Shown here piece by piece: positions 39,679 to 53,655 of a stretch of 64,000 nt of DNA (the first letter of the stretch is position 1; every line of letters starts with the position of its first letter). The stretch is taken from positions 48,287 to 112,286 of the forward strand of contig JAFSVH010000087.1 of NCBI GenBank assembly GCA_017450215.1, read 5' to 3'. A model generated the notes under the pieces. The model ran no database searches, was not told the origin of the DNA, and saw only the letters and a list, made by a program, of their open reading frames with translations. The stretch is from Bacilli bacterium. Its GTDB lineage: Bacteria > Bacillota_I > Bacilli_A > ML615J-28 > CAG-698. Both the position numbers and the translations under genes were made by a program.

Positions 39679-40059
39679 ATGAATGAATTAAAGAATTTAA
39701 AAGATTATTTTGTATCAAAAAACATAGATGAAATTATAAAATTAATAGATGATGAATGTAATTATAGATTCATGAATGATAATGCCTCTTTTGCAAATAA
39801 TAATGCAAAGAATAAAGATGATTTCATTCTTCATTTAAAGGAATTGTTTACTTTAGAGATAATAGAGGTTAATAAATTATATCAATATGATGATAAACAT
39901 TATTCTAATGATAAACATAAAGATTATACAAGAATCGCTATTTTTATCACTTTTAAAGGTGGTAAAGATATTTATGATAAAAAAGTAAACATCTTCTTTA
40001 AATTAAATAATGAAAAAATAATTGATATAGAAGAATATCTATTTAATGTTTTTAAATAG
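39679..40059 (+). CDS. Hypothetical protein
   Basis: 126-aa ORF with coding-like composition; no recognisable motif. Confidence 0.35.
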   Translation: MNELKNLKDYFVSKNIDEIIKLIDDECNYRFMNDNASFANNNAKNKDDFILHLKELFTLEIIEVNKLYQYDDKHYSNDKHKDYTRIAIFITFKGGKDIYDKKVNIFFKLNNEKIIDIEEYLFNVFK

Positions 40060-40084
40060 ATATAAATTATAATAATATGATTAT

Positions 40085-40822
40085 ATGATAAAAAATAAAA
40101 TGAGTTTTGAAGATGCATCAGCTAAAGCATTAAGTCATAATCTCCATCCTCAAGGAATTGGAGAATATAAAGAAAAAGTGATGCATAGTATTTTAAAAAA
40201 TTATTATGAAGATGATTTGAATAAACAAGAAATCAAGATTGATCGCTTTTATTGTGATATCTTAAATGAAAATGGGATTATAGAAATTCAAACAGCCAAT
40301 TTCAACATGTTAAGAGAAAAATTAAAAGTATTTCTTGAATCTTACGATGTTACAATTGTATATCCATTAGTTCATAATAAGTTCATTAATTGGGCAAATT
40401 CTAATGATGATTATATGCGAAAAAGTCCAAGACATGATTCAATTTTTAAAGCAAGTCGTGAGCTTTATAAGATTAAGATGTTTTTGAATAATCCTAAATT
40501 ACATTTCATGTTTGTCTTTTGTGATATGATTGAACTTAAAAATTTAGATGGATGGAATAAAACAAAGAAAAAAGGTGCAAGTAGCATTGTGAAAATACCA
40601 AATAGAATTGAAAAAGAAGTTTATTTGCATCATATCGATGAAATGAAAGAATATATCAATAATAATGGTAGTGAATTTAGTGCCAGTGAATTTGCGAAAA
40701 TGAATAAAGTAAGTTTGCGGATTGCTCAATTAACTCTTAATATATTAAAACATGTAAATGCTGTGAGTGTTGAAAGAATTGAGAAAAGAAAATATATTTA
40801 TAAAATTAATCATAGTGATTAA
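40085..40822 (+). CDS. Hypothetical protein
   Basis: 245-aa ORF; no recognised motif. Confidence 0.35.
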   Translation: MIKNKMSFEDASAKALSHNLHPQGIGEYKEKVMHSILKNYYEDDLNKQEIKIDRFYCDILNENGIIEIQTANFNMLREKLKVFLESYDVTIVYPLVHNKFINWANSNDDYMRKSPRHDSIFKASRELYKIKMFLNNPKLHFMFVFCDMIELKNLDGWNKTKKKGASSIVKIPNRIEKEVYLHHIDEMKEYINNNGSEFSASEFAKMNKVSLRIAQLTLNILKHVNAVSVERIEKRKYIYKINHSD

Positions 40823-40848
40823 TTATATTATTAGGAGATGAATAAAAA

Positions 40849-41634
40849 ATGGAAGAAAATATGAAAATAGAAAAAATTGTTTCTTGGAATGTTAATGGAT
40901 TACGAGCTGTAATTGGTAAAGAATTCTTTAAAATTATGGATAATTTCAATGCACAAATTGTTTGTATTCAAGAAACTAAAATGCAAGAAGATCAAATTAC
41001 ATTTTTAGATGATAATCATAAATATAATGATTATTATTTTTATTCATCTAGCGCTATTAAAAAAGGTTATTCTGGTACAGCTATATTTACTAAAATTGAA
41101 CCATTAAGTGTTAAATATGGACTTGATGATGGTAAATATAATGATGAAGGAAGAATAATAACATTAGAATTTGATAAATTTTATTTGGTTAATATGTATG
41201 TACCTAATGCCAGAGAAGGTTTAGTTAGAATTGATTATCGTCTTGAATATGAAGATGATATTAGGTCATATCTAAGTGAACTTAAGAAAACAAAGAATGT
41301 TATTGTATGTGGTGATTTGAATGTTGCTCATAATGAGATTGATTTAAAGAATCCACAAAGTAATATTGGTAATCCAGGTTTTAGTTATGAAGAACGTGAT
41401 GCCTTTGGTAAATTATTAAATAGTGGTTATATTGATACATTTAGACATTTATATCCAGATAAAGTTAAATATAGTTGGTGGAGTTATCGCTTTAATGCGA
41501 GAACGAAAGGAATTGGTTGGAGAATAGATTATTTTCTTGTGAATAATGAATTTATTGATGCGGTTAAGGATAGTGAAATATATGATGATATTTATGGTAG
41601 TGACCACTGTCCTGTTGCTATTATTTTAAAATAA
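40849..41634 (+). CDS. xth: Exodeoxyribonuclease III (AP endonuclease, EEP family)
   Basis: 'IVSWNVNGLRA', 'QETK', 'GDLNVAHNEIDL', C-terminal 'SDHCP' motifs. Confidence 0.85.
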   Translation: MEENMKIEKIVSWNVNGLRAVIGKEFFKIMDNFNAQIVCIQETKMQEDQITFLDDNHKYNDYYFYSSSAIKKGYSGTAIFTKIEPLSVKYGLDDGKYNDEGRIITLEFDKFYLVNMYVPNAREGLVRIDYRLEYEDDIRSYLSELKKTKNVIVCGDLNVAHNEIDLKNPQSNIGNPGFSYEERDAFGKLLNSGYIDTFRHLYPDKVKYSWWSYRFNARTKGIGWRIDYFLVNNEFIDAVKDSEIYDDIYGSDHCPVAIILK

Positions 41635-41644
41635 TAATTATTAG

Positions 41645-42409
41645 GTGTTTATTATGAATAATATAGATAATAAAAAACTACAAAAATTATATGAACTCAT
41701 AAATAAAAGCAATCGTATTGTTTTCTTTGGTGGTGCTGGTGTTTCAACTGCATCTGGTATTCCAGATTTTAGAGGTGCTAACGGTTTATATTCTTATACT
41801 CCTGAAGAGATAATAAGTCATTCTTTCTTTGTGAGAAATCCTAAAATGTTCTATGATTTCTATCTTGATAAAATGGTATATCATGATGCTTTGCCTAATG
41901 CTTGTCATAAGTTACTAGCAAAATTAGAAGAAGATGGTAAATTATTATCTATTGTGACTCAAAATATTGATGGCTTACATCAAGAAGCTGGAAGTAAAAA
42001 GGTTAGAGAATTGCATGGATCTATTAAAAGAAATTATTGCATGAAATGTCATAAATTCTATACATTAGAAGAACTAGAAAGTAGTTTAAAAGATGGAGTT
42101 CCAAGATGTAGTTGTGGTGGGATTATAAAGCCTGATGTTGTTTTATATGAAGAACCACTAGATAATGATACAATGTATGAAGCAGTTGATGATATTAGAC
42201 GTGCTGATTTATTAATTGTAGCAGGAACTAGTTTAGTTGTTTATCCTGCTGCTGGATTTATCAGATATTTTAATGGTGATAATATTGTCGTTATTAATCT
42301 TGGTAGAGCTAATGAAAATGCCTTCTATGGATTAAATAAAGATATATTATATATTGATGGTAGAGTTGAAGAATATTTAAATATTGGTAATTTAAATAAT
42401 TTGAAATAA
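41645..42409 (+). CDS. cobB: NAD-dependent protein deacylase (sirtuin, CobB family)
   Basis: 'GAGVSTASGIPDFRG', 'TQNIDGLH', zinc CxxC...CxxC ('CMKCH...CSCGG'). Confidence 0.8.
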   Translation: MFIMNNIDNKKLQKLYELINKSNRIVFFGGAGVSTASGIPDFRGANGLYSYTPEEIISHSFFVRNPKMFYDFYLDKMVYHDALPNACHKLLAKLEEDGKLLSIVTQNIDGLHQEAGSKKVRELHGSIKRNYCMKCHKFYTLEELESSLKDGVPRCSCGGIIKPDVVLYEEPLDNDTMYEAVDDIRRADLLIVAGTSLVVYPAAGFIRYFNGDNIVVINLGRANENAFYGLNKDILYIDGRVEEYLNIGNLNNLK

Positions 42410-42440
42410 GGTATATTAAAAAAGATGAAATGGTGGATGT

Positions 42441-43976
42441 ATGAGCAGCAAGGAATTAAAAGATATTGAAAGAAGCTTGATAAAGAAATTTAGAGGAGAA
42501 ATTTGGGCTAAGTTTGTTCAAGCAGTTGATGATTATAAGTTAATTAATGAAGGTGACAAGGTTGCTGTTTGTATGTCTGGTGGTAAAGATTCATTCTTAA
42601 TGGCTAAACTTTTTCAAGAATTGAAAAAGCATTGGCTTGTAAAATTTGATCTTGTTTTTTTGTGCATGAATCCTGGCTATAATGAAGTTAATAAAAGTAA
42701 AATTATTGAAAATGCCAATTACTTAGATATCCCACTTGAAATGTTTGAAACATCAATATTTGATAGTGTTAATAACATTGAAGATTCACCTTGTTATATT
42801 TGTGCAAGAATGAGAAGAGGATATTTATATCGTGAAGCCAAGAAGAGAGGATGCAATAAAATTGCATTAGGTCATCATTTTGATGATGTAATTGAAACTA
42901 CTTTAATGAGTATGCTTTATGGTAGTCAAGTTCAGACTATGGTACCAAAGATTATTAGTTCTAATGTAAGTGGAATGGAATTAATTAGACCAATGATAAA
43001 AATCAAAGAAGAAGATATCATTAGATGGTCTAATTATAATGGACTTGAATTTATTAATTGTGCTTGCAAGATGACTGAGAAAAAGCTTGATGAAGATAAA
43101 GATCAAGGTAAAAGAAAAGAAATCAAGAATTTGATTAAAAAATTAAAAGAAGTATATCCTATTGTTGATATTAATATTTTTAAATCAATGGAAAATGTTA
43201 ATTTAAATATGGTATTAGGATATAAAGATGATAATACGAAATATAATTTTTTAGATATTTATAATGCAAATAAAAACATTAGTGATTATAATTATAATGA
43301 TGCTTTATCTAGACAAATCGCTTTAATTGGCTTAGAAAAGCAAGAAAAGATTAAAAATAGTAAAGTCTTAATTTTTGGTCTTGGTGGTGTTGGTAGTTAT
43401 GCTTTAGAAGCAATAGTAAGAAGTGGTGTTGGTGAAGTTGGGATTGTTGACAACGATTGTTTAAGTGTTAGCAATCTTAATAGACAATTAATTGCTACAC
43501 TTCCTAATATTGGCAAGAAAAAGATTGATGTTTGTGAAGATAGAATTAAATCAATTAATCCAAACTGCATTGTGAAAAAATGGGATAATTTTGTATTAAA
43601 TAATAGTAATGAAATCTTTGACTTTAAATATTATGATTATGTCATTGATTGTATAGATACTGTTTCAGGGAAAATTGATATTATTACTTCGTGCACTAAT
43701 TTAGGTGTTAAAGTTATATCATCAATGGGAACAGCAAGAAAAATGGATCCTACAAAATTAGAAATAACTGATATTTATAAGACTCAAAATTGCCCTCTTG
43801 CTAAGGTTATGAGACATGAACTAAAGAAAAGAGGAGTTAAAGAATTAAAGGTAGTTTATTCAAAAGAAGATCCAATCATTAACGAAGATACTCAAGTATT
43901 GGGTAGTGTAAGCTTTGTACCAAGTGTTGCAGGGTTATATATAGCAAGTTATGTTATAAATGATATTGTGAAGTAA
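42441..43976 (+). CDS. Fusion protein: N-terminal TtcA-family PP-loop tRNA thiolase domain + C-terminal ThiF/TcdA-type E1-like domain (tRNA threonylcarbamoyladenosine dehydratase-like)
   Basis: N-terminal 'CMSGGKDS' PP-loop with Fe-S cysteines 'CYIC' and 'CAC'. C-terminal 'KVLIFGLGGVGSYALEAIVRSGVGEVGIVDNDCLSVSNLNRQ' Rossmann E1 motif without a rhodanese domain (TcdA/CsdL-like). Total 511 aa. Confidence 0.7.
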   Translation: MSSKELKDIERSLIKKFRGEIWAKFVQAVDDYKLINEGDKVAVCMSGGKDSFLMAKLFQELKKHWLVKFDLVFLCMNPGYNEVNKSKIIENANYLDIPLEMFETSIFDSVNNIEDSPCYICARMRRGYLYREAKKRGCNKIALGHHFDDVIETTLMSMLYGSQVQTMVPKIISSNVSGMELIRPMIKIKEEDIIRWSNYNGLEFINCACKMTEKKLDEDKDQGKRKEIKNLIKKLKEVYPIVDINIFKSMENVNLNMVLGYKDDNTKYNFLDIYNANKNISDYNYNDALSRQIALIGLEKQEKIKNSKVLIFGLGGVGSYALEAIVRSGVGEVGIVDNDCLSVSNLNRQLIATLPNIGKKKIDVCEDRIKSINPNCIVKKWDNFVLNNSNEIFDFKYYDYVIDCIDTVSGKIDIITSCTNLGVKVISSMGTARKMDPTKLEITDIYKTQNCPLAKVMRHELKKRGVKELKVVYSKEDPIINEDTQVLGSVSFVPSVAGLYIASYVINDIVK

Positions 43977-43986
43977 AGGAAGAAAA

Positions 43987-44526
43987 ATGATTAATTTAGT
44001 ATTATTTGAACCTGAGATTCCTCAAAATACAGGTAATATTATGAGAACATGTGTAGGTACTAATACACATCTACATTTAATTGAACCACTAGGATTTAGA
44101 CTTGATGAACATCATATTAAGAGAAGTGGTGTTAATTATATTAAGTATTTAAAATATGATGTCTATATGGATTTTGATGATTTCATTGAAAAAAGAATTA
44201 AAAGTAATCCTAATGCGAGAATGTTCTTTTTAACAAGATATGGTAGACATCATCTTCATGAAGTTGATTGTCATAATAAAGATTTAGATTATTATTTTAT
44301 TTTAGGAAAAGAATCTACTGGAATACCTAAAGACATATTGAAAGATTATTTAGATACTTGCATTAGACTTCCTATGACAGATAAAGTAAGAGCACTGAAT
44401 GTAAGTAATGTTGCTGCTATAATGGTATATGAAGCATTAAGGCAACAAGGCTTCCCAGGTTTATATGAATATGAACCTAGTGCTGATAAAGAAGGCTTTA
44501 AAGGTGAAGATTACCTTGAAAGATAA
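43987..44526 (+). CDS. trmL: tRNA (cytidine/uridine-2'-O)-methyltransferase TrmL (SpoU/TrmH family)
   Basis: 'INLVLFEPEIPQNTGNIMRTC' N-terminus. SPOUT fold size 179 aa. 'LGKESTGIP' motif. Confidence 0.7.
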   Translation: MINLVLFEPEIPQNTGNIMRTCVGTNTHLHLIEPLGFRLDEHHIKRSGVNYIKYLKYDVYMDFDDFIEKRIKSNPNARMFFLTRYGRHHLHEVDCHNKDLDYYFILGKESTGIPKDILKDYLDTCIRLPMTDKVRALNVSNVAAIMVYEALRQQGFPGLYEYEPSADKEGFKGEDYLER

Positions 44527-44603
44527 GTCCTAGTAGCTCAGTTGGATAGAGCGATAGCCTCCTAAGCTGTAGGTCGGGGGTTCAATTCCCTTCTAGGACG
44601 CCA
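44527..44603 (+). tRNA. tRNA-Arg (anticodon CCT), CCA encoded
   Basis: Cloverleaf readable. Acceptor GTCCTAG/CTAGGAC. D-arm GCTC/GAGC. Anticodon stem ATAGC/GCTGT with loop CTCCTAA. T-loop TTCAATT. 3' GCCA. Confidence 0.85.
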
Positions 44604-44657
44604 TATTAGTTGTACTATATTGATACCAAGAAAAATATCAATATTTGTAATAAAATT

Positions 44658-44688
44658 GGGTAAAATCGGTGTATTTTGCCCTTTTTTT
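44658..44688 (+). terminator. Rho-independent terminator after the tRNA (GGGTAAAAT cggtgt ATTTTGCCC + TTTTTTT)
   Basis: 9-bp stem (one G-U) plus a 7-T run. Confidence 0.6.
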
Positions 44689-44753
44689 ATGCTTTTATAG
44701 TAAAAATGATGAGAAATATAGGATAAAAATCTTAAAAAAAGTTGATCATCAAT

Positions 44754-44832
44754 AAATTTTTACACGATTACAATTGATTTTACACGTTTTACACGATTTG
44801 AAGACAATTTTACACGATTTTACACGATTTAA
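44754..44832 (+). repeat. Iteron-like direct repeats, family A: five copies of (TTT)TACACGATT(T) at about 10/20-bp phasing
   Basis: Copies start at 44761, 44781, 44790, 44811, 44821. Confidence 0.7.
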
Positions 44833-44837
44833 AAAAG

Positions 44838-44925
44838 AACCTTTTAGAGGTTCGTGAACGATTTGGGGGGTTCGTAAACGATTTGAGGGTTCGTGAACGA
44901 TTAGGGGGTTCGTGAACGATTTCAG
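44838..44925 (+). repeat. Iteron-like direct repeats, family B: four copies of GGGG(G)TTCGTGAACGATTT at 19-20 bp spacing, preceded by the palindrome GAACCTTTTAGAGGTTC
   Basis: Copies start at 44851, 44871, 44890, 44909. Each core has a mini-palindrome TCGT-GA-ACGA. Family A and family B share the ACGATT core. Confidence 0.7.
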
Positions 44926-45557
44926 ATTTTCATGCATTTTTTATCATTTACTAGTCTAAAAAATGTTCCTCTAGATACTCCTATTATTTTAGCAGCTTCT
45001 ATGTTGGTAAGTTGATGATTTATATATTGGGTTAGAATCTCATCGGTGTTAGGTGGGGTGACCGCTCTAGGTCTTCCAAACTTAACACCTTTTTCTTTTG
45101 CTATTCTTATTCCTTCCATCTGTCTTTCTCTTATGTTGTTCCTCTCATTCTCCGCAACAAAGCTTAATACTTGTAAAACAATATCACTTATAAACTTACC
45201 GACTAGATTCTTGCCTTCTATTCTAGTATCCAAAAGGGGCATATCTAATACTTTAATATCAGCACCTATTGTTTTTGTGATTCTTGTCCATTCTTCTAAT
45301 ATCATATGATAATTTCTACCTAAACGATCTATTGACTTAATAATCAGTAGGTCGTCTTTTTTTATTTTCTTTATTAATCTTTGGTAATTAGTTCTATTAA
45401 AGTCTTTCCCTGATTCTTTGTCTATATAAATGTACTTGTCTTCAATATTAAGAGTTTTAATCTCTTCATATTGCCTGTCTATTTTTTGTTGTTTCGTGGA
45501 AACACGTATGTATGCATATATCATTGAATTAATACCTCCGCTCTCATATATAGCCAT
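44922..45557 (-). CDS. Small serine recombinase (resolvase/invertase family) with C-terminal HTH
   Basis: N-terminal 'YAYIRVSTKQQ' catalytic-Ser motif, 'DRLGRN' motif, C-terminal 'AAKIIGVSRGTFFRL' HTH. 211 aa. Confidence 0.85.
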   Translation of the reverse strand: MAIYESGGINSMIYAYIRVSTKQQKIDRQYEEIKTLNIEDKYIYIDKESGKDFNRTNYQRLIKKIKKDDLLIIKSIDRLGRNYHMILEEWTRITKTIGADIKVLDMPLLDTRIEGKNLVGKFISDIVLQVLSFVAENERNNIRERQMEGIRIAKEKGVKFGRPRAVTPPNTDEILTQYINHQLTNIEAAKIIGVSRGTFFRLVNDKKCMKI

Positions 45558-45800
45558 AAAAGAAAAAATTATTCAAGCAAAACAGGTATAAAAAAAGAAG
45601 CATCAAAGAAGATATAAAAATGTATACCTTTTGATACTTCGTTATTTCTTTTATTATACCATGATTTTTATGAAAATTCCACGAAAAAATTGAATAATAA
45701 GCTAATTTTGAAATTTTTTGATATAACTTCAATCATTCTAATTAACCATACAATTTTAGACTAACAAGATTGTGTAATCTTAAAAAGAGGTAATTAGAAC

Positions 45801-46751
45801 ATGGATTTTATTAGATCACCATTAAATTATACTGGAAATAAATTTAGGATTTTAGATCAAATAGTTCCTTTATTTCCAAAAAAAATATCATGTATGATTG
45901 ATCTGTTCTGTGGTGGAGCTACTGTAGGATTGAATGTAAAAGCGAATAAAATAATTTTTGTTGATTCAAATGAGCATATCATCAATTTGTTGGTCTATTT
46001 ATCAAAGCATTCTTTCGAATCAGTACTTTGTTCTTTTGAAAACATTATTAATAAATATAATCTTTCTTATTCATATAAGTACGGATATAAAAAATATAGA
46101 GATTATTCAAAAAATAAAAATGATAATAATGGATTAAAAGAATACAATAATAAAGGCTTTTACCTGCTTCGTGATGACTATAATTCTTTGATAGATAAGA
46201 ATACAGATGAAGCCAATGCTATGCTTTATATATTAATGGTATATGCATTTAATAATGATATACGATTTAATTCGGATGGTGATTTTAATCTTCCAGTTGG
46301 AAAAACGGATTTAAATCGAATGAATGTAAATAAAATACGACAATATATAGATAGAATTAAAAGTATTAATGCAGAGTTTGTTTGTACTGACTTTACAAGT
46401 GATGATTTTCAATTATTGGTCAAAAAAGCTGACTTCATATATATGGATCCACCATATTTATTGGGTGATGCTGTATACAATTCTTGTTGGAACAATGAAA
46501 TGGAGCATAAATTATTAGATTTCATTGATTATATTAGAAATGAAAAAATTGATTTTGCCTTATCAAATGTTATGACAAAAATTGGAAAAACAAACGAGCC
46601 ACTTTCCTATTGGGTTTATAAAAATAAAGATTATTTAAAAGTAAATCACATTAAATATAATTATCGCAGCTCAAGTTATAACAAAATAATGCGCGATGCA
46701 AAAGAAGATGAAGTACTCATTTGTAATAAGAGGTATCGCCATGAAAATTAA
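45801..46751 (+). CDS. Dam-like (D12 class, alpha group) N6-adenine DNA methyltransferase 1
   Basis: 'YTGNKFRIL' N-terminus, motif I 'DLFCGGATVG', motif IV 'IYMDPPYL'. RBS AAGAGG. Confidence 0.8.
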   Translation: MDFIRSPLNYTGNKFRILDQIVPLFPKKISCMIDLFCGGATVGLNVKANKIIFVDSNEHIINLLVYLSKHSFESVLCSFENIINKYNLSYSYKYGYKKYRDYSKNKNDNNGLKEYNNKGFYLLRDDYNSLIDKNTDEANAMLYILMVYAFNNDIRFNSDGDFNLPVGKTDLNRMNVNKIRQYIDRIKSINAEFVCTDFTSDDFQLLVKKADFIYMDPPYLLGDAVYNSCWNNEMEHKLLDFIDYIRNEKIDFALSNVMTKIGKTNEPLSYWVYKNKDYLKVNHIKYNYRSSSYNKIMRDAKEDEVLICNKRYRHEN

Positions 46752-47751
46752 TAATAGACGATACATAGGATGTAAAACGAAATTATTAGACTTCATTTAT
46801 GATTCAGTTGAAAGATACAACATTTCTAAAGACTCGGTATTTGCTGATATTTTTGCAGGAACGGGAGTTGTAGCTTATAGATTTGCTTTAGAAGGATATA
46901 AAACAATTTTAAATGATACTTTATTTTCAAATTATGTGATTTATAAAACTATTTTTAATAATGAAATAATGAGAATAGATTTGTTGAAAAACGAAATAAA
47001 TTATTTTAATTCAATAGATAGTGATTCATTAAAAGCAAATTATTTTTCAAACACTTATGGTGGAAAATACTATTCTTTTGATAATGCCAAAAAAATAGGA
47101 TTTATAAGAGATTACATTGAAGAAAACAAACAAAAGTATAATGAAAGGGAATATTACTATTTAATTACCTGTTTATTATATGCATGCGATAAAATTGCAA
47201 ATACAGTTGGACATTTTGAATCATATCTACATAGTGCTCCTAAAGGAGAAAAACTTATGTTAGAAGAGTTTGAGATGAATAGCAATCTTCCTGAATCTTA
47301 TATATATAACGAAGATGCTAATAATCTTGCAAAAAAAATAAATGCAGATATTGTATATATTGATCCTCCTTACAATGCTAGACAATATGTGAATTTTTAT
47401 CATGTTTTAGAAAATTTAGCAAGGTGGAATAAGCCGACTGAATTTGAAGGAAAATCAATGAAATTTAAACGAGACAATCTTAAAAGTGATTATTGTAGAA
47501 GTAAAGCACCTTTATTGTTTGAGGATTTAATTCAATCACTAAAATGTAAATTAATTGTTGTCTCATATAATAATACATACAATGCAAAAAGTGTATCCTC
47601 TAATAATACAATTAGTGAAGATCAAATAATTGAAATATTAAGTAAAAAAGGAAATGTAACTATTAAGACAATTGATTATAGTGCATTTAATGCTGGCAAA
47701 ACAGATTTAAAAAATCACAAAGAATATTTGTATATATGTGAGGTATTTTAA
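46741..47751 (+). CDS. Dam-like (D12 class) N6-adenine DNA methyltransferase 2. Start chosen at ATG 46741 (RBS AAGAGG) rather than the ORF-track start 46696.
   Basis: 'RYIGCKTKLL' Dam N-terminal signature, motif I 'DIFAGTGVVA', motif IV 'VYIDPPYNA'. Overlaps MTase 1 by 11 nt. Confidence 0.8.
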   Translation: MKINNRRYIGCKTKLLDFIYDSVERYNISKDSVFADIFAGTGVVAYRFALEGYKTILNDTLFSNYVIYKTIFNNEIMRIDLLKNEINYFNSIDSDSLKANYFSNTYGGKYYSFDNAKKIGFIRDYIEENKQKYNEREYYYLITCLLYACDKIANTVGHFESYLHSAPKGEKLMLEEFEMNSNLPESYIYNEDANNLAKKINADIVYIDPPYNARQYVNFYHVLENLARWNKPTEFEGKSMKFKRDNLKSDYCRSKAPLLFEDLIQSLKCKLIVVSYNNTYNAKSVSSNNTISEDQIIEILSKKGNVTIKTIDYSAFNAGKTDLKNHKEYLYICEVF

Positions 47752-48668
47752 TGACAATACTTGAATACTATATTAAACAACAATCCATTGATATTTGGTA
47801 TGAAAAGTTCATTAGTAGTTCAAATAAACAAAGTGGAAAATCATTTAGTTATGTTAATACTAACTATAGAAATTTACTTTCATTTTTAATTCAATTTGAT
47901 CGATTTAGATCAAAAGTAGGAATTGAACGAAAAGATTGGAATGACAAATTGCCTGGTGGACAAGAATTAGACAAACATAGAATATCTAATTTGATTTTGT
48001 CGGGATTTATTCGAAAGGAAGACACTTATTATTACTATACACCAAAAGGTGTTGCTGCTTTGGATTTAATAGATAAAAACTATGGTGATTCCATAAAATG
48101 GATATTATTATACTTACTTCTTTTAGATTATAAAAGTGAAAATAGAAACTGCGATATTATTCACACTACAAAAGATCTTTTTTCAAAGTTACAATCAATT
48201 GGTTATACAAATGAATGTATATTAAATAGTCTAAGAAAAATAATAAAAGTAACTGATAAAATAAAACTTTTTAACGAAGATATATTTTGGTTGATCTCGT
48301 TTGTTAATGATGAAGATTTTATTAAAATGTATAAGAATAGTAGCGAACAAGAAAAAAACGATTTGAAAGAATTTGTAATTAATCGTTCAAAAGACGAACA
48401 TAGTACTGATTTGATAGCACACAAATACACACCTGGTGGAATTTATAGTGGAATAATGTTTAGGGAAGATGTTAAGGTATTTTATTATACATATAAAATA
48501 ATTGGAATACTTTCAGAGCCATTTGATTCATTTATTAATGAAATAATAAAAGTATATTGTGAAGATTTTTGTTCAGAAAATGACGCTGATATAATAAAAG
48601 AATTCATTAGCAGTCATAAAAGTATTTATATTAAAGTTAAACAAGAATTATTAATGGGGGTAAAGTAA
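47751..48668 (+). CDS. Hypothetical 305-aa protein, translationally coupled between the MTases and the GmrSD-like gene; candidate restriction endonuclease or specificity partner
   Basis: Start ATG overlaps the MTase 2 stop (TAATG). No recognised motif. A loose D...(D/E)xK candidate sits at 'TDLIAHK...FREDVK'. Position after paired MTases is where Type II REase genes sit. Confidence 0.3.
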   Translation: MTILEYYIKQQSIDIWYEKFISSSNKQSGKSFSYVNTNYRNLLSFLIQFDRFRSKVGIERKDWNDKLPGGQELDKHRISNLILSGFIRKEDTYYYYTPKGVAALDLIDKNYGDSIKWILLYLLLLDYKSENRNCDIIHTTKDLFSKLQSIGYTNECILNSLRKIIKVTDKIKLFNEDIFWLISFVNDEDFIKMYKNSSEQEKNDLKEFVINRSKDEHSTDLIAHKYTPGGIYSGIMFREDVKVFYYTYKIIGILSEPFDSFINEIIKVYCEDFCSENDADIIKEFISSHKSIYIKVKQELLMGVK

Positions 48669-48669
48669 A

Positions 48670-50742
48670 ATGCCAAATGTAAGACCTGATAGATTTGAAT
48701 TATTAAGATTTTTTAAATATGCTCCAAATACCCAATTTGTAATCCCTGTATATCAAAGAAATTATATATGGACTGCCAAAAAACAAGTAAGAAAATACTT
48801 AGATGATTATAAAGCTGTATTAAGTGGTGAGCGTGTAAAACATTTTATTGGTATTATAATGTACTTACAAATACAAAGAAGCATTGGATTTTTTGAATTT
48901 TCTGTAGTTGATGGTCAGCAGAGATTTGTAACCACATTTTTGATGCTATATGCTTTAAAGAAAATTGCTATGGAAGCTGGTAATCTTACTTTCGCGACTC
49001 AAATTAATGATTTATATTTAACAAATCAATATGCGAAAAATTATAATGATAAACTAAAATTAAAACCATTGGTATCTGATGATGATGTATTCAGCAAAAT
49101 AATAAAAGATGATCTACAGAATTTAACAAAAGAAGAAAAAAAGTCGAATGTTTATATTAATTATATTACTGTAAAAAAATATTTAAAAGAACTATATGGA
49201 CATTTTCAACTAGAACAAATGTTAGAAGCTTTTGATAAGTTTTATTTTGTTGCAATTCCATTAGATAGTAGTGAAGATGATGCTCAAAAGATTTTTGAAA
49301 CCATAAATTCTGCTGGTGCTGCATTGACAAAATCAGACTTAATTCGAAATTATATTTTGATGAATATGCAGAGCTATGAGCAAGATAGATTATACAAGGA
49401 ATATTGGTATCCTATGGAAAAATCTTTTGCTAGTTCTGGAAAAATAGAAAATTTCTTTAGAATGTTTTTGGCTAATAGAAATTACAATCTAAGTAATATG
49501 GAAGACATTTATGATGTTTTTCAAATTTGGTTTGATAAAAACAGATCAAATTATGGAATAGAACAGTCTTTAAAAACAATTTGTAAATATGCAAAATATT
49601 ATAATGATTTATTTATTAAAGAAAAGGTTGAAATTGCTCCAGAAATAGATGTTGCTTTAAAAGAATTCAAAAAAAATGCAATAGAACCTACTGCTCCTTT
49701 GTTAATGGAAATTTATAATCTATACGATAGTAAAGATGATAAGAACGACCGCCTTGTTTCAGCTATGGAATTTGCAAAGATTATTAATTTATTTAATATT
49801 TATAATGTTAGAAGAAATATTTGCAATCAAAGAACTGGTATATTAACTCGTATAGTTCCATTAATGTTGAAGTATGTTCTTGATAATTGCGATGGTGTCT
49901 ATTCAAAGATTTATGAACATTGTGTTCGTTATCTAGTAGACAATTCAAAAGGCAAGCAATCATTTATGCCAGATGATGAATATTTGAAATTAAATTTATC
50001 TGGTGCTAATGCTTATAGTTTGAGAAATTATGTAAAAACTATATTTGAAAAGATAGAGTCATATAATAATCCTGCAGTAATTGATTTTTCAAATTTAAGT
50101 ATAGAACACTTAATGCCACAGACTCCAACGGATGAGTGGCTTAAAACTTTGAATATAAAAAAGGAAGACTACGAATTTAATGTTCATAGACTTGGTAATT
50201 TAACTCTTGCTACGTCAGTAGATAATAGTAAAATGTCAAATAATCCATTTGAATATAAAAAGCAAGTTCTTCAAAATACATCTCATTTAAAAATGAATAT
50301 GGAGATAATTAACAAACCAACGTGGGGAATAAAAGAAATAGAGGAAAGAACTGCATATTTAATTCAAAAAATATGCGATTTATATCCATATGTTTCAGTT
50401 GGAGAGCAAACTGTTAATCATTATAATGTTTATTTAAAGAATGATAATTCTGACATATCTGCATTTTTGTTTTCGGATGAAACAATTGAAATTCAAGAGG
50501 GTAGCATAATAAAATGCTCATATAATAATTTCATTAGGGACTTGGTTGAAGATGGAATAATAAAGGAATCGGGAGAAAAATACGAATTTTTGCAACCATA
50601 TTCATTTAGTAATATTGAAGAAGCAACAAATACAATGGCACCCGATATTACAAATTGCTGGGAATCATGGGTAGACTATAATAAACAACCATTAAGTCTT
50701 GAATTAAGAGCAAAGTTGCTAAATTCTAAAGCAAAAAAATAG
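48670..50742 (+). CDS. GmrSD-family Type IV restriction-endonuclease-like protein (N-terminal DUF262 ParB-like NTPase/nickase + C-terminal DUF1524 His-Me finger nuclease)
   Basis: DUF262 'VVDGQQRF' (DGQQR) motif. C-terminal 'IEHLMPQTP...HRLGNLTLATSVDNSKMSNNPF' HNH-like DUF1524 motif. 690 aa. Starts 1 nt after the previous stop. Confidence 0.75.
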   Translation: MPNVRPDRFELLRFFKYAPNTQFVIPVYQRNYIWTAKKQVRKYLDDYKAVLSGERVKHFIGIIMYLQIQRSIGFFEFSVVDGQQRFVTTFLMLYALKKIAMEAGNLTFATQINDLYLTNQYAKNYNDKLKLKPLVSDDDVFSKIIKDDLQNLTKEEKKSNVYINYITVKKYLKELYGHFQLEQMLEAFDKFYFVAIPLDSSEDDAQKIFETINSAGAALTKSDLIRNYILMNMQSYEQDRLYKEYWYPMEKSFASSGKIENFFRMFLANRNYNLSNMEDIYDVFQIWFDKNRSNYGIEQSLKTICKYAKYYNDLFIKEKVEIAPEIDVALKEFKKNAIEPTAPLLMEIYNLYDSKDDKNDRLVSAMEFAKIINLFNIYNVRRNICNQRTGILTRIVPLMLKYVLDNCDGVYSKIYEHCVRYLVDNSKGKQSFMPDDEYLKLNLSGANAYSLRNYVKTIFEKIESYNNPAVIDFSNLSIEHLMPQTPTDEWLKTLNIKKEDYEFNVHRLGNLTLATSVDNSKMSNNPFEYKKQVLQNTSHLKMNMEIINKPTWGIKEIEERTAYLIQKICDLYPYVSVGEQTVNHYNVYLKNDNSDISAFLFSDETIEIQEGSIIKCSYNNFIRDLVEDGIIKESGEKYEFLQPYSFSNIEEATNTMAPDITNCWESWVDYNKQPLSLELRAKLLNSKAKK

Positions 50743-50749
50743 AGGACTA

Positions 50750-51409
50750 ATGATGATGACAAAAGGATTTATTTATATTTTAACTAATCCATCTTTCGAA
50801 GGTCATGATTGGGTGAAAATAGGCTACACAAAGAATGTGGAAAAAAGAAGAAAGGATTTGTCCACTACCGCATTACCTTTTGAATATGAGATATACGCAT
50901 ATTATGAATTACCAGAAGGAGTTGAACTAGCAGATAAAGCTGTTCATAATCTTATCCAACAATTGAATCCAGGCATTAGATTAAATCCCAATAGGGAATT
51001 CTTTGATATGAAACCAGAAGATGCATATAATTTATTAAATTGTATTGCTAAAATTAATGGTAAGGAACTAGTTAATGGACCTGGTAGAATAGAATATGAA
51101 AAAACTTTACAAATAAAAACAAAAGATTCGCCCAAAAAATATCCTAAAATGGATTGGCTAATGGAACAGGGAGTAATTAAGCCAGGTGATGACATTTATG
51201 TCGTAAACCATCCGGAAGATGTTGCAACTATAATTGATGCTGATACTGTGGAATATAATGGCGATAAATTATCTTTTAATCAATTTGGATGTAAAGTTAC
51301 TGGATGGAGTGCTATACAGACATATGCATTAATGAAAAAGGTTGGTTGCAGCGAAACACTTCATGAATTAAGATTGGCAAAAATGCAGGAAGTTAATTGG
51401 AAAGGTTAA
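50750..51409 (+). CDS. GIY-YIG-like (T5orf172) nuclease-domain protein with C-terminal DUF4357
   Basis: 'GFIYILTNPSFEGHDWVKIGYTKNVEKRRKDL' matches the T5orf172/GIY-YIG pattern. C-terminal region is of DUF4357 type. 7 bp after the GmrSD-like gene. Confidence 0.65.
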   Translation: MMMTKGFIYILTNPSFEGHDWVKIGYTKNVEKRRKDLSTTALPFEYEIYAYYELPEGVELADKAVHNLIQQLNPGIRLNPNREFFDMKPEDAYNLLNCIAKINGKELVNGPGRIEYEKTLQIKTKDSPKKYPKMDWLMEQGVIKPGDDIYVVNHPEDVATIIDADTVEYNGDKLSFNQFGCKVTGWSAIQTYALMKKVGCSETLHELRLAKMQEVNWKG

Positions 51410-51527
51410 TAATATTATTATATCGATAGCACTAGAGATAATATCAAAGGTGCTTTTTGTATATTAGGGAGGTGATGATATGTTAAAATAAATAAAATAT
51501 TATCTTTTCTTATTAGGAGGTGATTAA

Positions 51528-53000: not shown

Positions 53001-53655
53001 TAATATTGAAATACAAGCACTTGCTAGAGTACTTAATTTACAAAACATAGCTAATGGTAATATTGATCTAAATAATGAAAGAATATCAAATAAAGATTAT
53101 TTATATCAGATTTTACTTGAAGAAGTAAATATTAGAAATAAAAACAAGTTAATGGATATTAGAAAAATGGCTAAGCTTCCTAATAAGGTATTTGATGAAA
53201 CAAGAATAACTGAAGGATTAAAGTGGCAATTATCTAAACTTAAAGAATTTGATTTTAAATTAAACAAACAAAACATATTTATTGTTGGGGACTGTGCAAC
53301 AGGAAAAACTTCTCTTGCAACACTATTAGGCAATAAAGCACTTGACAAAGGTGCTAAAGTATCTTACATTACTTATGATGATTTAGTTATTGAATCTAAA
53401 ATAAAGAAAAGAGTATGGAATCATATTTTAGAATCTGATGTACTAATACTAGATGATGTGTTTTATTTACCACCAACTGAAGAAGAACTAATTCAAATAT
53501 ATAAGGTTTTAATGTTTTTACAAGAAACAAGGAGTATTATTGTAATTACTAATAGAAGCTTATCTAGTTGGAAAGATATGAAGGTAGATACACATTTAAT
53601 TGAGACATTGCAAAAAAGACTGATGCAGAACGCTCAAATAATTACACTTGGCTAA
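52993..53655 (+). CDS. istB: IS21-family helper ATPase IstB
   Basis: Walker A 'FIVGDCATGKTSLA'. Walker B 'VLILDDVF'. Overlaps istA by 8 nt. Confidence 0.85.
   Translation: MADNIEIQALARVLNLQNIANGNIDLNNERISNKDYLYQILLEEVNIRNKNKLMDIRKMAKLPNKVFDETRITEGLKWQLSKLKEFDFKLNKQNIFIVGDCATGKTSLATLLGNKALDKGAKVSYITYDDLVIESKIKKRVWNHILESDVLILDDVFYLPPTEEELIQIYKVLMFLQETRSIIVITNRSLSSWKDMKVDTHLIETLQKRLMQNAQIITLG

What the first reader, a model, noticed from the sequence alone, without database searches (positions are those of the whole stretch)
42441..43976. Single-polypeptide fusion of a TtcA-type tRNA thiolase with a ThiF/TcdA-type E1-like domain
The N-terminal half has the PP-loop (SGGKDS) and Fe-S cysteines of TtcA/TtuA-type tRNA thiolases. 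The C-terminal half has the E1-like Rossmann motif (GLGGVGS...NLNRQ) of TcdA/CsdL. In archaeal, Thermus and eukaryotic systems a TtuA/Ncs6-type thiolase works with a separately encoded ThiF/Uba4-type E1 that activates the sulfur carrier. A covalent fusion could be a self-contained sulfur-relay module. Alternatively it is a bifunctional enzyme modifying positions 32 (s2C) and 37 (ct6A) of the same anticodon loop. It sits directly upstream of trmL (position 34 methylation) and a tRNA gene, so the three genes form a small anticodon-loop modification cluster.
Basis: partly seen in the sequence, partly recalled or inferred. Interest (0 to 1): 0.55.

Follow-up and report, generated by a model that had tools for sequence, protein, structure and literature searches.

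The report
Fused tRNA thiolase–t6A cyclase enzyme
One gene in an uncultured gut Bacilli bacterium joins two known tRNA anticodon-loop modification enzymes (a TtcA-type cytidine-32 thiolase and a TcdA-type t6A-37 cyclase). This is one of several independent fusions of a gene pair that sits side by side in many Clostridia and Bacilli, a link the literature I searched does not describe.

Summary
Window 42441-43976 (+) is one 511-aa ORF. Residues 1-~270 are a complete TtcA-family PP-loop/[4Fe-4S] thiolase. Residues ~285-511 are a complete TcdA-family E1-like module. An AlphaFold2 model joins them by a low-confidence tether.

It is not a chimera: the identical protein (MBQ7276899.1, "ThiF family adenylyltransferase") occurs on 8 contigs.

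In 80 reference-genome loci, ttcA and tcdA abut or overlap as separate genes in 19 and are fused in 2, in both orders. At least six clean fusion lineages exist. One synteny block shows fused (window, L003), split (L092) and ttcA-only (L004-6) states.

The C-half is TcdA-type, not a sulfur-carrier E1. It has no Zn CxxC motifs and no conserved cysteine. No rhodanese domain and no nearby GG-tailed carrier gene were found. The "self-contained sulfur relay" reading is therefore not supported. The "position 32 + 37 bifunctional enzyme" reading fits best.

The trmL/tRNA-Arg neighbourhood is local synteny only.

It is a new architecture built from known parts. The recurrent TtcA-TcdA coupling may bear on why E. 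coli TcdA depends on CsdA/CsdE.

The parts
42441..43976 (+). ttcA::tcdA fusion ORF, 511 aa (identical to MBQ7276899.1)
42441..43286 (+). TtcA-family module (residues 1-282): PP-loop ATP pyrophosphatase / [4Fe-4S] tRNA 2-thiolase fold
   Evidence: NCBIfam TtcA 6.6e-58. 70-72% identical to stand-alone TtcA-family proteins P0026/P0029. Fold matches TtuA/NcsA.
42576..42593 (+). PP-loop SGGKDS (residues 46-51)
   Evidence: Invariant in alignments A2 and A3
42792..42803 (+). CYIC (C118, C121), aligned with the E. coli TtcA cluster ligands C122/C125
   Evidence: PMC4081106
43059..43067 (+). CAC (C207, C209), aligned with the second E. coli CxxC; supplies the third cluster ligand
   Evidence: at least 97% conserved in 235 homologues
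43203..43295 (+). TtcA C-terminal tail plus junction (residues ~255-285): the low-confidence tether joining the two modules
   Evidence: AF2 pLDDT 51-62 here against 90-96 in the domain cores, pTM 0.52. Junction compared with the split ortholog L092.
43287..43973 (+). TcdA-family module (residues 283-511): E1-like t6A37 cyclodehydratase fold, complete including the C-terminal helix
43377..43394 (+). GLGGVG nucleotide-binding motif (residues 313-318; E. coli TcdA G37-G42)
   Evidence: invariant
43479..43487 (+). NRQ (R348 = E. coli TcdA R72, ATP phosphate contact)
   Evidence: PMC13139853 section 52
43521..43523 (+). K361, placed by my own count from the alignment blocks at E. coli TcdA K85, which is an invariant column
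   Evidence: PMC13139853 section 52
43647..43658 (+). DCID (D403, D406 = E. coli TcdA D127, D130; D130 equivalent essential in yeast Tcd2)
   Evidence: PMC13139853 section 52
43779..43835 (+). KTQNCPLAKVMRHELKKRG (residues 447-465): counterpart of the TcdA-specific segment 170-189 that occludes the MoaD/ThiS docking surface; T172, P176, A178, R182, L185 invariant
   Evidence: PMC4405576 section 22
43987..44526 (+). trmL-like SpoU methyltransferase, 10 nt downstream; probably co-transcribed; lineage-specific neighbour only
44527..44603 (+). tRNA-Arg(CCU), anticodon loop C32-U33-C34-C35-U36-A37-A38: candidate substrate of both modules; lineage-specific neighbour only
44658..44690 (+). Terminator-like hairpin plus T-run that closes the co-directional gene array 39679-44603

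Best explanation
The gene encodes a bifunctional tRNA anticodon-loop modification enzyme made of two autonomous catalytic modules on a flexible tether.

N-module (TtcA family, inferred chemistry): it uses its PP-loop to adenylate C2 of cytidine 32 and replaces the oxygen with sulfur held on a [4Fe-4S] cluster bound by C118, C121 and C209, giving s2C32.

C-module (TcdA family, inferred chemistry): it adenylates the carboxylate of t6A37 (GLGGVG, R348, K361, D406) and lets it cyclise to ct6A.

Origin (shown): the fusion arose when the stop/start overlap between two translationally coupled genes, ttcA and tcdA, was lost. The pair is adjacent in about a quarter of the sampled Clostridia/Bacilli loci and has fused independently at least six times, in both orders.

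Likely reason for the coupling (inferred): the two enzymes share clients. By the E. coli rule, the AGN-decoding tRNAs (Arg-UCU, Ser-GCU) carry both s2C32 and t6A37. In this 28% GC genome, 78% of Arg codons are AGA/AGG. Co-expression at 1:1, or tethering, would let one tRNA encounter serve both positions.

Shown: architecture, residue conservation, synteny, repeated fusion. Inferred: both activities, the substrates, and the selective reason.
For: Single ORF with two complete domains.

TtcA half:
- SGGKDS is present, and C44/C118/C121/C138/C207/C209 are conserved in at least 96% of 235 homologues.
- These cysteines align to the E. coli ligands (PMC4081106).

TcdA half:
- G37/G39/G40/G42, R72, K85, D127 and D130 are invariant against E. 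coli TcdA. Mutagenesis of the equivalent residues is reported in PMC13139853.
- The fold superposes on E. coli TcdA over the full length (target-normalised TM 0.81-0.85, rmsd 1.9-2.8 A).
- The nearest stand-alone relatives (53-55% identity) that carry a source name are called tRNA threonylcarbamoyladenosine dehydratase.

Tether: AF2 gives confident cores and a junction of pLDDT 51-62, with pTM 0.52.

Gene-pair linkage:
- 19 of 80 reference loci have abutting or overlapping ttcA and tcdA, in both orders, and 2 are fused.
- Junctions show an RBS inside the upstream gene and an ATG overlapping the stop.
- The syntenic split ortholog L092 has an 8-nt overlap.

Independent fusions:
- Every clade is closer to unfused sequences than to other fusion clades.
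- Bootstrap: clades A, B and C score 98-100%, while unions of clades score at most 27% in one tree and 0% in the other.

No sign of neofunctionalisation: TtcA proteins linked to tcdA and those not linked are interspersed in the tree.

Substrates:
- s2C32 occurs on tRNA-Arg ICG/CCG/UCU and tRNA-Ser GCU (PMC5372739). t6A occurs on ANN decoders (PMC13139853).
- Codon usage in the window: AGA 71% + AGG 6.6% of Arg codons, AGY 43% of Ser codons.
- The adjacent tRNA-Arg(CCU) has C32, U36 and A37.
Against: - Neither half reaches NCBIfam's equivalog cut-off (TtcA 196 vs 272 bits; TcdA 132 vs 304 bits), so exact specificity is not guaranteed.
- I found no report of s2C32 or ct6A being measured in these lineages.
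- About 56 of the 80 ttcA loci have no tcdA within the flank, and B. subtilis has TcdA/YrvM without TtcA (PMC4014445; PMC5372745). The partnership is therefore facultative, which fits shared clients but does not prove it.
- Repeated fusion is more typical of enzymes with a mechanistic dependency than of enzymes acting on different nucleotides. E. coli TcdA also has an unexplained tie to sulfur trafficking (PMC4405576).
- The AF2 monomer model gives no information about a dimer or a tRNA-bound geometry.
Confidence: 0.6

Rival explanations
1. Sulfur-relay reading. The TcdA-like module serves thiolation: it receives or recruits persulfide sulfur, as E. coli TcdA does from CsdA/CsdE, or it acts as an E1 for a sulfur carrier, and it feeds the TtcA module.
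For: - E. coli TcdA is persulfurated by CsdA/CsdE in vitro, and ct6A needs them in vivo for unknown reasons (PMC4405576; PMC5372745).
- TtcA-family proteins are often fused to sulfur-delivery domains: rhodanese-TtcA (L014, L022) and full ThiF + rhodanese + TtcA (P0035). TcdA therefore occupies a position that sulfur donors occupy in other fusions.
- In L014, L022 and L064, tcdA directly precedes a ttcA ORF with an N-terminal extension of ~110 aa. Pfam confirms that extension as rhodanese in L014 and L022.
Against: - No cysteine is conserved in the TcdA module across 79 sequences. The best position, C451, is Cys in 73% and Asp in the rest, as in E. coli.
- The crossover loop that carries E. coli C220/C234 is almost deleted in the window clade.
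- There are no Zn CxxC motifs, and the TcdA-specific segment said to block MoaD/ThiS docking is conserved (PMC4405576).
- No GG-ended small ORF lies in the window or the linked loci.
- No cysteine desulfurase or carrier protein is encoded next to the fusions whose gene contexts I looked up.
- TtcA has its own PP-loop and needs only cluster-bound sulfide.
- Most ttcA loci lack tcdA.
Confidence: 0.12
2. Sequential chemistry on one nucleotide. The TtcA-like module does not target C32 here. Instead it thiolates the product or intermediate of the TcdA module, for example a carbonyl of the ct6A hydantoin ring or the adenylated t6A carboxylate. This would make an undescribed sulfur-containing t6A derivative.
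For: - The N-half is below the TtcA equivalog cut-off, and this Firmicutes subfamily has not been characterised experimentally as far as I could find.
- Tight translational coupling and repeated fusion are the classic signature of consecutive pathway steps.
- TtcA-type chemistry (O-adenylation, then O-to-S exchange) could in principle act on a carbonyl.
Against: - No such nucleoside is known.
- TtcA proteins linked to tcdA and those not linked are interspersed in the tree, with no subfamily split.
- Most ttcA loci have no tcdA nearby.
- The cluster and PP-loop residues are the same as in E. coli TtcA.
Confidence: 0.06
3. Artefact. The ORF is an assembly chimera or a sequencing frameshift that merges two adjacent genes.
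For: - Close relatives have two separate overlapping genes (L092), so a 1-nt error could create a fusion.
- One apparent fusion lineage (clade D: P0009/P0011/L030) is indeed a frameshift-type join that reads the last ~35 codons of tcdA out of frame.
Against: - The identical protein occurs on 8 contigs from independent sources.
- Four further 90%-identity clusters at 68-84% identity have the same end-to-end, in-frame architecture.
- Both modules are complete to their termini, including the TcdA C-terminal helix.
Confidence: 0.01

Closest known systems
E. coli TtcA (tRNA cytosine(32) 2-sulfurtransferase; Bouvier 2014, PMC4081106)
   Same: The PP-loop SGGKDS and the three [4Fe-4S] cysteine ligands align. 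It is the best NCBIfam model for residues 11-287. There are no extra Zn-finger CxxC pairs.
   Different: Identity is about 30%. The score is below the equivalog cut-off. The second motif is CxC rather than CxxC. Here the module is fused to TcdA. Activity in this Firmicutes subfamily is untested.
E. coli TcdA/CsdL and B. subtilis YrvM (t6A37 to ct6A dehydratase; PDB 4D79/4D7A/4RDH/4YED)
   Same: GxGGxG, R72, K85 and D130 are invariant, and the TcdA-specific 170-189 segment is conserved. The fold matches over the full length, with target-normalised TM 0.81-0.85. There is no Zn site.
   Different: Identity is about 30%. It is shorter: the 187-200 insert is missing and the crossover loop is nearly deleted, so C220 and C234 are absent. 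It is genetically coupled to ttcA rather than to csdA-csdE (for the E. coli locus).
TsaN of Pandoraviruses (TsaD-TsaC-SUA5-TcdA fusion; PDB 8IDE, PMC10484737)
   Same: It is a precedent for a TcdA module fused to another enzyme of tRNA/nucleoside modification. The TcdA module matches in sequence and fold.
   Different: TsaN fuses consecutive steps of one pathway (t6A, then ct6A) and acts at the nucleoside/nucleotide level rather than on tRNA (PMC10484737; PMC13139853). The present fusion joins enzymes for two different nucleotides (32 and 37), with thiolation chemistry.
TtuA-TtuB-TtuC and Ncs6/NcsA-Urm1/SAMP-Uba4/UbaA sulfur relays
   Same: A TtuA/Ncs6-family PP-loop [4Fe-4S] thiolase is functionally linked to an E1-superfamily protein. 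The N-half fold matches TtuA/NcsA.
   Different: Those E1s are MoeB/ThiF-type, with a Zn site, and they adenylate a GG-tailed carrier protein. The C-half here is TcdA-type, with no Zn site, and no nearby carrier gene or rhodanese domain was found.
P0035-type ThiF(MoeB/MoeZ-like)-rhodanese-TtcA and rhodanese-TtcA fusions in Clostridia
   Same: The same TtcA subfamily (about 60% identity to the window's N-half) is fused to an accessory domain.
   Different: The accessory domains are bona fide sulfur-mobilisation modules: a full 238/238 ThiF profile at 276 bits with CxxC motifs, plus rhodanese. They are not TcdA.

Membership tests
TtcA family (PP-loop [4Fe-4S] tRNA C32 2-thiolase) | PP-loop SGGxDS ATP-pyrophosphatase motif | tested here: met
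   SGGKDS at residues 46-51, invariant in A2 and A3
TtcA family (PP-loop [4Fe-4S] tRNA C32 2-thiolase) | Three cysteine ligands of the [4Fe-4S] cluster (E. coli C122, C125 and the last Cys of the second CxxC; PMC4081106) | tested here: met
   C118, C121 and C209 align with them and are at least 98% conserved in 235 homologues
TtcA family (PP-loop [4Fe-4S] tRNA C32 2-thiolase) | No N- or C-terminal Zn-finger CxxC pairs of the TtuA/Ncs6 group (feature recalled from my own knowledge of Jager 2004 and the TtuA structures) | tested here: met
   The only cysteines in the N-half are C44, C75, C118, C121, C138, C207 and C209
TtcA family (PP-loop [4Fe-4S] tRNA C32 2-thiolase) | Score at or above the NCBIfam equivalog cut-off for TtcA (NF007972, 272 bits) | tested here: not met
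   196.3 bits. It is the best model by far (next: TilS N-domain 72 bits), so I file it as TtcA-family, not as a proven TtcA equivalog.
TtcA family (PP-loop [4Fe-4S] tRNA C32 2-thiolase) | Forms s2C at position 32 of tRNA | not testable with these tools
   Needs LC-MS or complementation
TcdA/Tcd family (t6A37 cyclodehydratase, E1-like) | E1-like Rossmann site: GxGGxG, Arg72, Lys85, Asp130 (PMC13139853) | tested here: met
   G313/G315/G316/G318, R348, K361 and D406 occupy invariant columns in A1
TcdA/Tcd family (t6A37 cyclodehydratase, E1-like) | No MoeB/ThiF Cys4 Zn site; TcdA-specific segment 170-189 present (PMC4405576 section 22) | tested here: met
   No CxxC in the C-half. T172, P176, A178, R182 and L185 are invariant.
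TcdA/Tcd family (t6A37 cyclodehydratase, E1-like) | Closer to solved TcdA than to MoeB/ThiF in sequence and fold | tested here: met
   phmmer: TcdA 3e-32, MoeB 5e-18, ThiF 5.5e-16. Foldseek target-normalised TM: 0.81-0.85 against 0.67-0.73.
TcdA/Tcd family (t6A37 cyclodehydratase, E1-like) | Score at or above the NCBIfam equivalog cut-off for TcdA (NF011696, 304 bits) | tested here: not met
   131.9 bits over model positions 9-187 of 268. The window lacks two E. coli segments, the 187-200 insert and the long crossover loop. Source-named relatives at 53-55% identity are nevertheless called TcdA.
TcdA/Tcd family (t6A37 cyclodehydratase, E1-like) | Cys234 proposed as thioester nucleophile in E. 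coli TcdA | tested here: not met
   Absent. It is also absent from active yeast Tcds and its role is unproven (PMC13139853 section 53), so it does not define the family.
TcdA/Tcd family (t6A37 cyclodehydratase, E1-like) | Converts tRNA t6A37 to ct6A with ATP | not testable with these tools
   Needs LC-MS at neutral pH, or complementation of a tcdA deletion
Sulfur-carrier-activating E1 (MoeB/ThiF/TtuC/Uba4/MoeZ) | Zn-binding CxxC...CxxC motif | tested here: not met
   No CxxC in residues 283-511; compare P0035, which has CYRC and CRVC
Sulfur-carrier-activating E1 (MoeB/ThiF/TtuC/Uba4/MoeZ) | Cognate ubiquitin-like carrier with a C-terminal GG encoded nearby, or a fused rhodanese domain | tested here: not met
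   No 55-110 aa ORF ending in GG in the window or the linked loci. No rhodanese domain in the window protein. Only the neighbourhood was tested, not the whole genome.

The most novel reading that the evidence does not exclude
The recurrent coupling of TcdA with a sulfur-inserting enzyme reflects a real mechanistic dependency between t6A cyclisation and thiolation. The evidence for coupling is adjacent, translationally coupled genes in many Firmicutes and at least six independent fusions. The dependency could be that TcdA docks sulfur-transfer partners for TtcA, or that the two reactions are ordered or coupled on the same tRNA. If so, the Firmicutes fusion would be the natural 'Rosetta stone' explaining why ct6A formation in E. 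coli needs the cysteine desulfurase CsdA and the sulfur acceptor CsdE even though ct6A contains no sulfur.
Probability: 0.12. Interest if true: 0.8.

Novelty: new variant of a known kind. Interest (0 to 1): 0.5.

Why it matters
Both modules belong to known enzyme families. However, a single polypeptide predicted to modify two different anticodon-loop positions (32 and 37), and the wider ttcA-tcdA gene pairing behind it, are not described in the literature I could search. NCBI labels the protein only as "ThiF family adenylyltransferase".

It matters in three ways.

1. Annotation. Hundreds of gut Clostridia/Bacilli genes are probably under-annotated.

2. tRNA biology. It predicts that s2C32 and ct6A37 are installed together on AGN-decoding tRNAs in low-GC Firmicutes, whose tRNA modifications are largely unmapped.

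3. An open question. TcdA's dependence on the CsdA/CsdE sulfur system has been called enigmatic since 2013-2015 (PMC4405576, PMC5372745). This is a second, independent genomic tie between TcdA and sulfur chemistry, in another phylum. It offers a compact fusion protein in which cross-dependence can be tested with point mutants.

Tried and rejected
- The exhaustive search of 50%-identity representatives was uninformative about fusion diversity. Clustering collapsed the fusions, and only P0001 appeared as a full-length match.
- The promoter scan gave no signal above shuffles (44 found vs 43.6 expected), so I claim no promoter.
- I searched for ThiS/MoaD-like ORFs ending in GG in the window and in 25 linked loci. 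There were none apart from one spurious hit in a phage region of L091.
- I tested whether trmL, Sir2, ExoIII or tRNA genes recur next to ttcA/tcdA elsewhere. They do so only in the window's own lineage, so I rejected the 'three-gene anticodon-loop cluster'.
- I looked for cysteine desulfurase or sulfur-carrier genes beside other fusions (L001, L003, L089, L091) and found none.
- A PatB/MalY-like class I/II aminotransferase overlaps the ttcA start in L092, but it recurs near ttcA in only 2 other loci. That is too weak to build on.
- The BREX/phosphorothioation paper that mentions TtcA and ThiF turned out to be irrelevant.
- I first counted seven fusion lineages. Clade D (P0009/P0011/L030) proved to be a frameshift-type join that loses the TcdA C-terminal helix, so I count six clean lineages.
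- I considered whether the window has a second TtcA or TcdA paralogue. It has none in its 64 kb. The rest of the genome could not be searched.
Full report
**1. The observation**

Window 42441..43976 (+) is a single uninterrupted ORF of 511 aa.
- Pfam places a PP-loop domain (ATP_bind_3) at residues 40-205 and a ThiF domain at residues 289-440.
- In NCBIfam the best model for residues 11-287 is TtcA (6.6e-58). The best for residues 285-463 is TcdA (3.3e-38), ahead of MoeB (1e-28) and ThiF (3e-27). Both are below the curated equivalog cut-offs.
- The next gene (43987..44526) is TrmL-like. A tRNA-Arg(CCU) gene follows it at 44527-44603 with no gap.
- The genes from 39679 to 44603 are co-directional with gaps of 0-31 nt. 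A terminator-like hairpin at 44658-44681 closes the array.

**2. Not an artefact**

- The protein is 100% identical to MBQ7276899.1, "ThiF family adenylyltransferase [Bacilli bacterium]". That sequence is recorded on 8 contigs from NCBI, ENA and Logan assemblies.
- Fused relatives with the same end-to-end architecture occur at 84, 72, 71 and 68% identity in other assemblies.
- The window is 28.3% GC and uses TGA as a stop codon. Its closest named relatives are uncultured Bacilli MAGs.

**3. What each half is**

N-half:
- It aligns with E. coli TtcA at about 30% identity. The PP-loop is invariant, and cysteines align with the [4Fe-4S] ligands defined by Bouvier et al. (C118, C121, C209) (PMC4081106).
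- Six cysteines are conserved in at least 96% of 235 homologues.
- There are no extra CxxC pairs of the TtuA/Ncs6 type.
- The AF2 model of this half matches TtuA and NcsA, the solved [4Fe-4S] thiolases.

C-half:
- It aligns with E. coli TcdA. G37/G39/G40/G42, R72, K85, D127 and D130 are invariant, as are five residues of the TcdA-specific segment 170-189.
- R72, K85 and D130 are the residues whose equivalents were shown by mutagenesis to matter in yeast Tcd2 (PMC13139853 section 52).
- Segment 170-189 is the one reported to block the MoaD/ThiS docking surface, and TcdA lacks the MoeB/ThiF Zn site (PMC4405576 section 22). The C-half indeed has no CxxC.
- By sequence it is 14 orders of magnitude closer to solved TcdA than to MoeB.
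- By fold it covers essentially the whole E. coli TcdA chain (target-normalised TM 0.81-0.85, rmsd 1.9-2.8 A), against TM 0.67-0.73 for MoeB/ThiF.
- Its nearest stand-alone relatives (53-62% identity, 226-247 aa in most cases) are named tRNA threonylcarbamoyladenosine dehydratase wherever a source names them.
- The crossover loop that carries C220/C234 in E. coli is almost deleted.
- No cysteine is conserved in this module across 79 sequences.

**4. How the halves are joined**

- AlphaFold2 (47-sequence alignment) gives mean pLDDT 84.5, with domain cores at 90-96.
- Residues ~255-285 score 51-62, and pTM is only 0.52. These are two confident domains with no confident mutual orientation.
- The syntenic split ortholog shows the join is simple. 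In L092, TtcA ends ...FLDEYDTFNYCTGEDNE* and TcdA starts MNEGFNRTINLIG, with an 8-nt overlap (ATGAATGA).
- The window reads ...FLDIYNANKNISDYNYNDALSRQIALIG straight through.

**5. The wider pattern, which is the main result**

Scanning one genome per GTDB species returned 80 loci. I classified them with stop-to-stop ORFs and BLASTP of each half.
- ttcA and tcdA are separate but abutting or overlapping genes in 19 loci. Eleven are ordered ttcA>tcdA, including Mobilitalea sibirica DSM 26468 and Lachnospiraceae bacterium COE1. Eight are ordered tcdA>ttcA.
- In 2 loci tcdA lies ~0.6-2 kb upstream of ttcA.
- In 2 loci they are fused (L008, L030).
- In the remaining loci no tcdA lies in the fetched flank.
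- Junctions have a Shine-Dalgarno sequence inside the upstream gene and a start codon overlapping or next to its stop, which indicates translational coupling.

In the protein database the fusion occurs in both orders.

Domain-wise identities show that each fusion clade is closer to unfused sequences than to any other fusion clade.
- Example: the clade A TtcA module is 71-72% identical to stand-alone P0029/L004 but only 51-59% identical to other fusion clades.

In 100 bootstrap NJ trees per domain:
- Clades A, B and C are each recovered at 98-100%.
- No union of fusion clades is recovered consistently (best: B+C, 27% in one tree and 0% in the other).

One lineage, clade D, is a frameshift-type join that reads the last ~35 codons of tcdA out of frame. 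I therefore count at least six clean, independent fusions: three ordered TtcA-TcdA and three ordered TcdA-TtcA.

**6. Three states in one synteny block**

- The order DUF8091-ExoIII-Sir2-[...]-TrmL is shared by the window, L003, L004-L006 and L092.
- At the same position, the window and L003 have the fusion. L092 (GCA_045598145.1) has overlapping ttcA and tcdA. L004-L006 (GCA_017642525.1) have ttcA alone.
Given section 2, though, it shows where the fusion came from, not that it is false.

**7. What is not conserved**

- TrmL, Sir2, ExoIII and the tRNA-Arg(CCU) gene accompany ttcA only in this lineage, and in none of the 80 reference loci.
- The 'three-gene anticodon-loop cluster' is therefore local synteny.
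- No cysteine desulfurase, rhodanese or GG-tailed carrier is encoded beside the fusions whose gene contexts I looked up.

**8. Mechanism**

The best-supported reading is two autonomous activities on one chain: s2C32 formation by the TtcA module and t6A37-to-ct6A cyclisation by the TcdA module.

The likely reason for the coupling is shared clients.
- In E. coli, s2C32 is found on tRNA-Arg(ICG, CCG, mnm5UCU) and tRNA-Ser(GCU) (PMC5372739).
- t6A/ct6A marks ANN decoders (PMC13139853), so the AGN decoders carry both.
- In this window's 48 long ORFs, AGA+AGG make up 78% of Arg codons and AGY 43% of Ser codons.
- So if the E. coli rule transfers (an inference), most TtcA clients here are also TcdA clients.
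- The adjacent tRNA-Arg(CCU) has C32, U36 and A37.
- E. coli TtcA is a dimer (PMC4081106), and E. coli TcdA is a dimer that binds two tRNAs (PMC4405576), so a fused homodimer is plausible. This is inference; it was not modelled.

**9. Rivals**

The sulfur-relay reading has real attractions.
- E. coli TcdA is persulfurated by CsdA/CsdE, and ct6A needs them in vivo although ct6A contains no sulfur. The literature calls this relation 'enigmatic' (PMC4405576; PMC5372745).
- This TtcA subfamily is often fused to rhodanese, and once to a full MoeB-like E1 plus rhodanese.

The evidence against it:
- The module has no conserved cysteine and no Zn site.
- Pfam finds no rhodanese domain in the protein, and no GG-tailed carrier ORF lies in the neighbourhood.
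- The carrier-blocking segment is conserved (PMC4405576 section 22).
- tcdA is missing from most ttcA loci.

A more exotic rival is that the thiolase acts on the TcdA product or intermediate. I cannot exclude this because the subfamily is uncharacterised and below the equivalog cut-off. However, linked and unlinked TtcA proteins do not separate in the tree.

**10. Comparison with what is known, and novelty**

- Each module passes the residue-level and fold-level tests for its family. Each fails only the strict NCBIfam equivalog score, so I file them as TtcA-family and TcdA-family modules, not as proven equivalogs.
- The closest precedent for a fused TcdA is the pandoraviral TsaN, which fuses consecutive t6A/ct6A steps (PMC10484737).
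- I found no paper linking TtcA and TcdA by operon or fusion. The public annotation is generic.
- This is a new architecture built from known parts. It reveals a broad gene association that appears to be undescribed.
- Its main value beyond annotation is that it gives a second, independent genomic tie between TcdA and sulfur chemistry, and a compact protein in which that tie can be tested.

Noticed in passing
window 44604-53655: Immediately 3' of tRNA-Arg(CCU) lies what looks like a defence/mobile island: a serine recombinase (44922-45557, minus strand), two D12-class N6-adenine DNA methyltransferases (45801-46751, 46696-47751), a 305-aa ORF with no Pfam hit (47751-48668), a GmrSD type IV restriction enzyme (48670-50742), a T5orf172 protein, and an IS21-like IstA/IstB pair (51528-53655).
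   Followed up: partly
window 44770-44920: There are two sets of short direct repeats between the terminator and the recombinase gene: about 5 copies of TTTTACACGATT-like units, then about 4 copies of GGTTCGTGAACGATT-like units. I read these by eye. They may be recombinase or att-related sites.
   Followed up: no
L089 6001-7983 (P0035), L090: A 660-aa triple fusion: a full MoeB/ThiF-type E1 (238/238 of the Pfam profile, with CYRC and CRVC motifs), then rhodanese, then a TtcA-family thiolase. This MoeZ/Uba4-like sulfur-activating module is covalently joined to the thiolase, yet no ThiS/MoaD-like gene is nearby.
   Followed up: partly
L014 6862-8001, L022 6751-7929; P0039, P0043 etc.; P0121: Rhodanese-TtcA fusions (~380-395 aa) are common among the Clostridia hits, many from Lachnospiraceae MAGs. 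In L014 and L022 the rhodanese-ttcA gene directly follows tcdA. A 737-aa form adds a second PP-loop (NAD-synthase/QueC-like) domain after TtcA.
   Followed up: partly
L030 6500-6760; P0009, P0011; compare L083 5990-6200: The clade D 'fusions' (TcdA-TtcA order) arise from a frameshift about 35 codons before the tcdA stop. The conserved TcdA C-terminal helix (GSVSFVPSVAGL...) is still encoded, but in another frame, and the fused ORF reads a Cys-rich out-of-frame peptide instead. This could be a real mutation shared by three clusters, an error, or recoding.
   Followed up: partly
L092 8845-10014; L086 7990-9174; L022 2784-4010: A class I/II aminotransferase (PF00155; it resembles PatB/MalY-type C-S lyases, from memory) overlaps the start of ttcA by 14 nt in L092. 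Homologues (42-43% identity) lie within ~1-3 kb of ttcA/tcdA in two other loci. It could be a sulfide source, but the recurrence is weak.
   Followed up: partly
window residue C451 (43791-43793); alignment of 79 TcdA domains: The position equivalent to E. coli TcdA D175, within the TcdA-specific segment, is Cys in 73% of Firmicutes-type TcdA modules and Asp in the rest. This Cys/Asp alternation is unexplained.
   Followed up: no
L062 ~7380-7450 (Mobilitalea sibirica tcdA): The crossover loop of this stand-alone TcdA carries a Cys-rich insert (NSCKVGCICPPGAERKC). The insert is absent from the window clade.
   Followed up: no
L004-L006 8885-12618; L092 11690-16854: Large collagen-repeat/Flg_new genes are inserted between ttcA(/tcdA) and trmL in the syntenic relatives, in opposite orientations in the two genomes. 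The window and L003 lack them.
   Followed up: no
L088 7017-7949 (E. coli K-12 ttcA): In NP_415860 numbering the second CxxC is C210/C213. Bouvier et al. call these residues C219/C222, while both numberings agree on C122/C125. This discrepancy should be kept in mind when citing the residues (vs PMC4081106).
   Followed up: no
window 40085-40822: This 245-aa ORF had no Pfam hit at E<=0.01. Its syntenic counterparts in L003, L004 and L092 are recorded with PF26351 (DUF8091).
   Followed up: no
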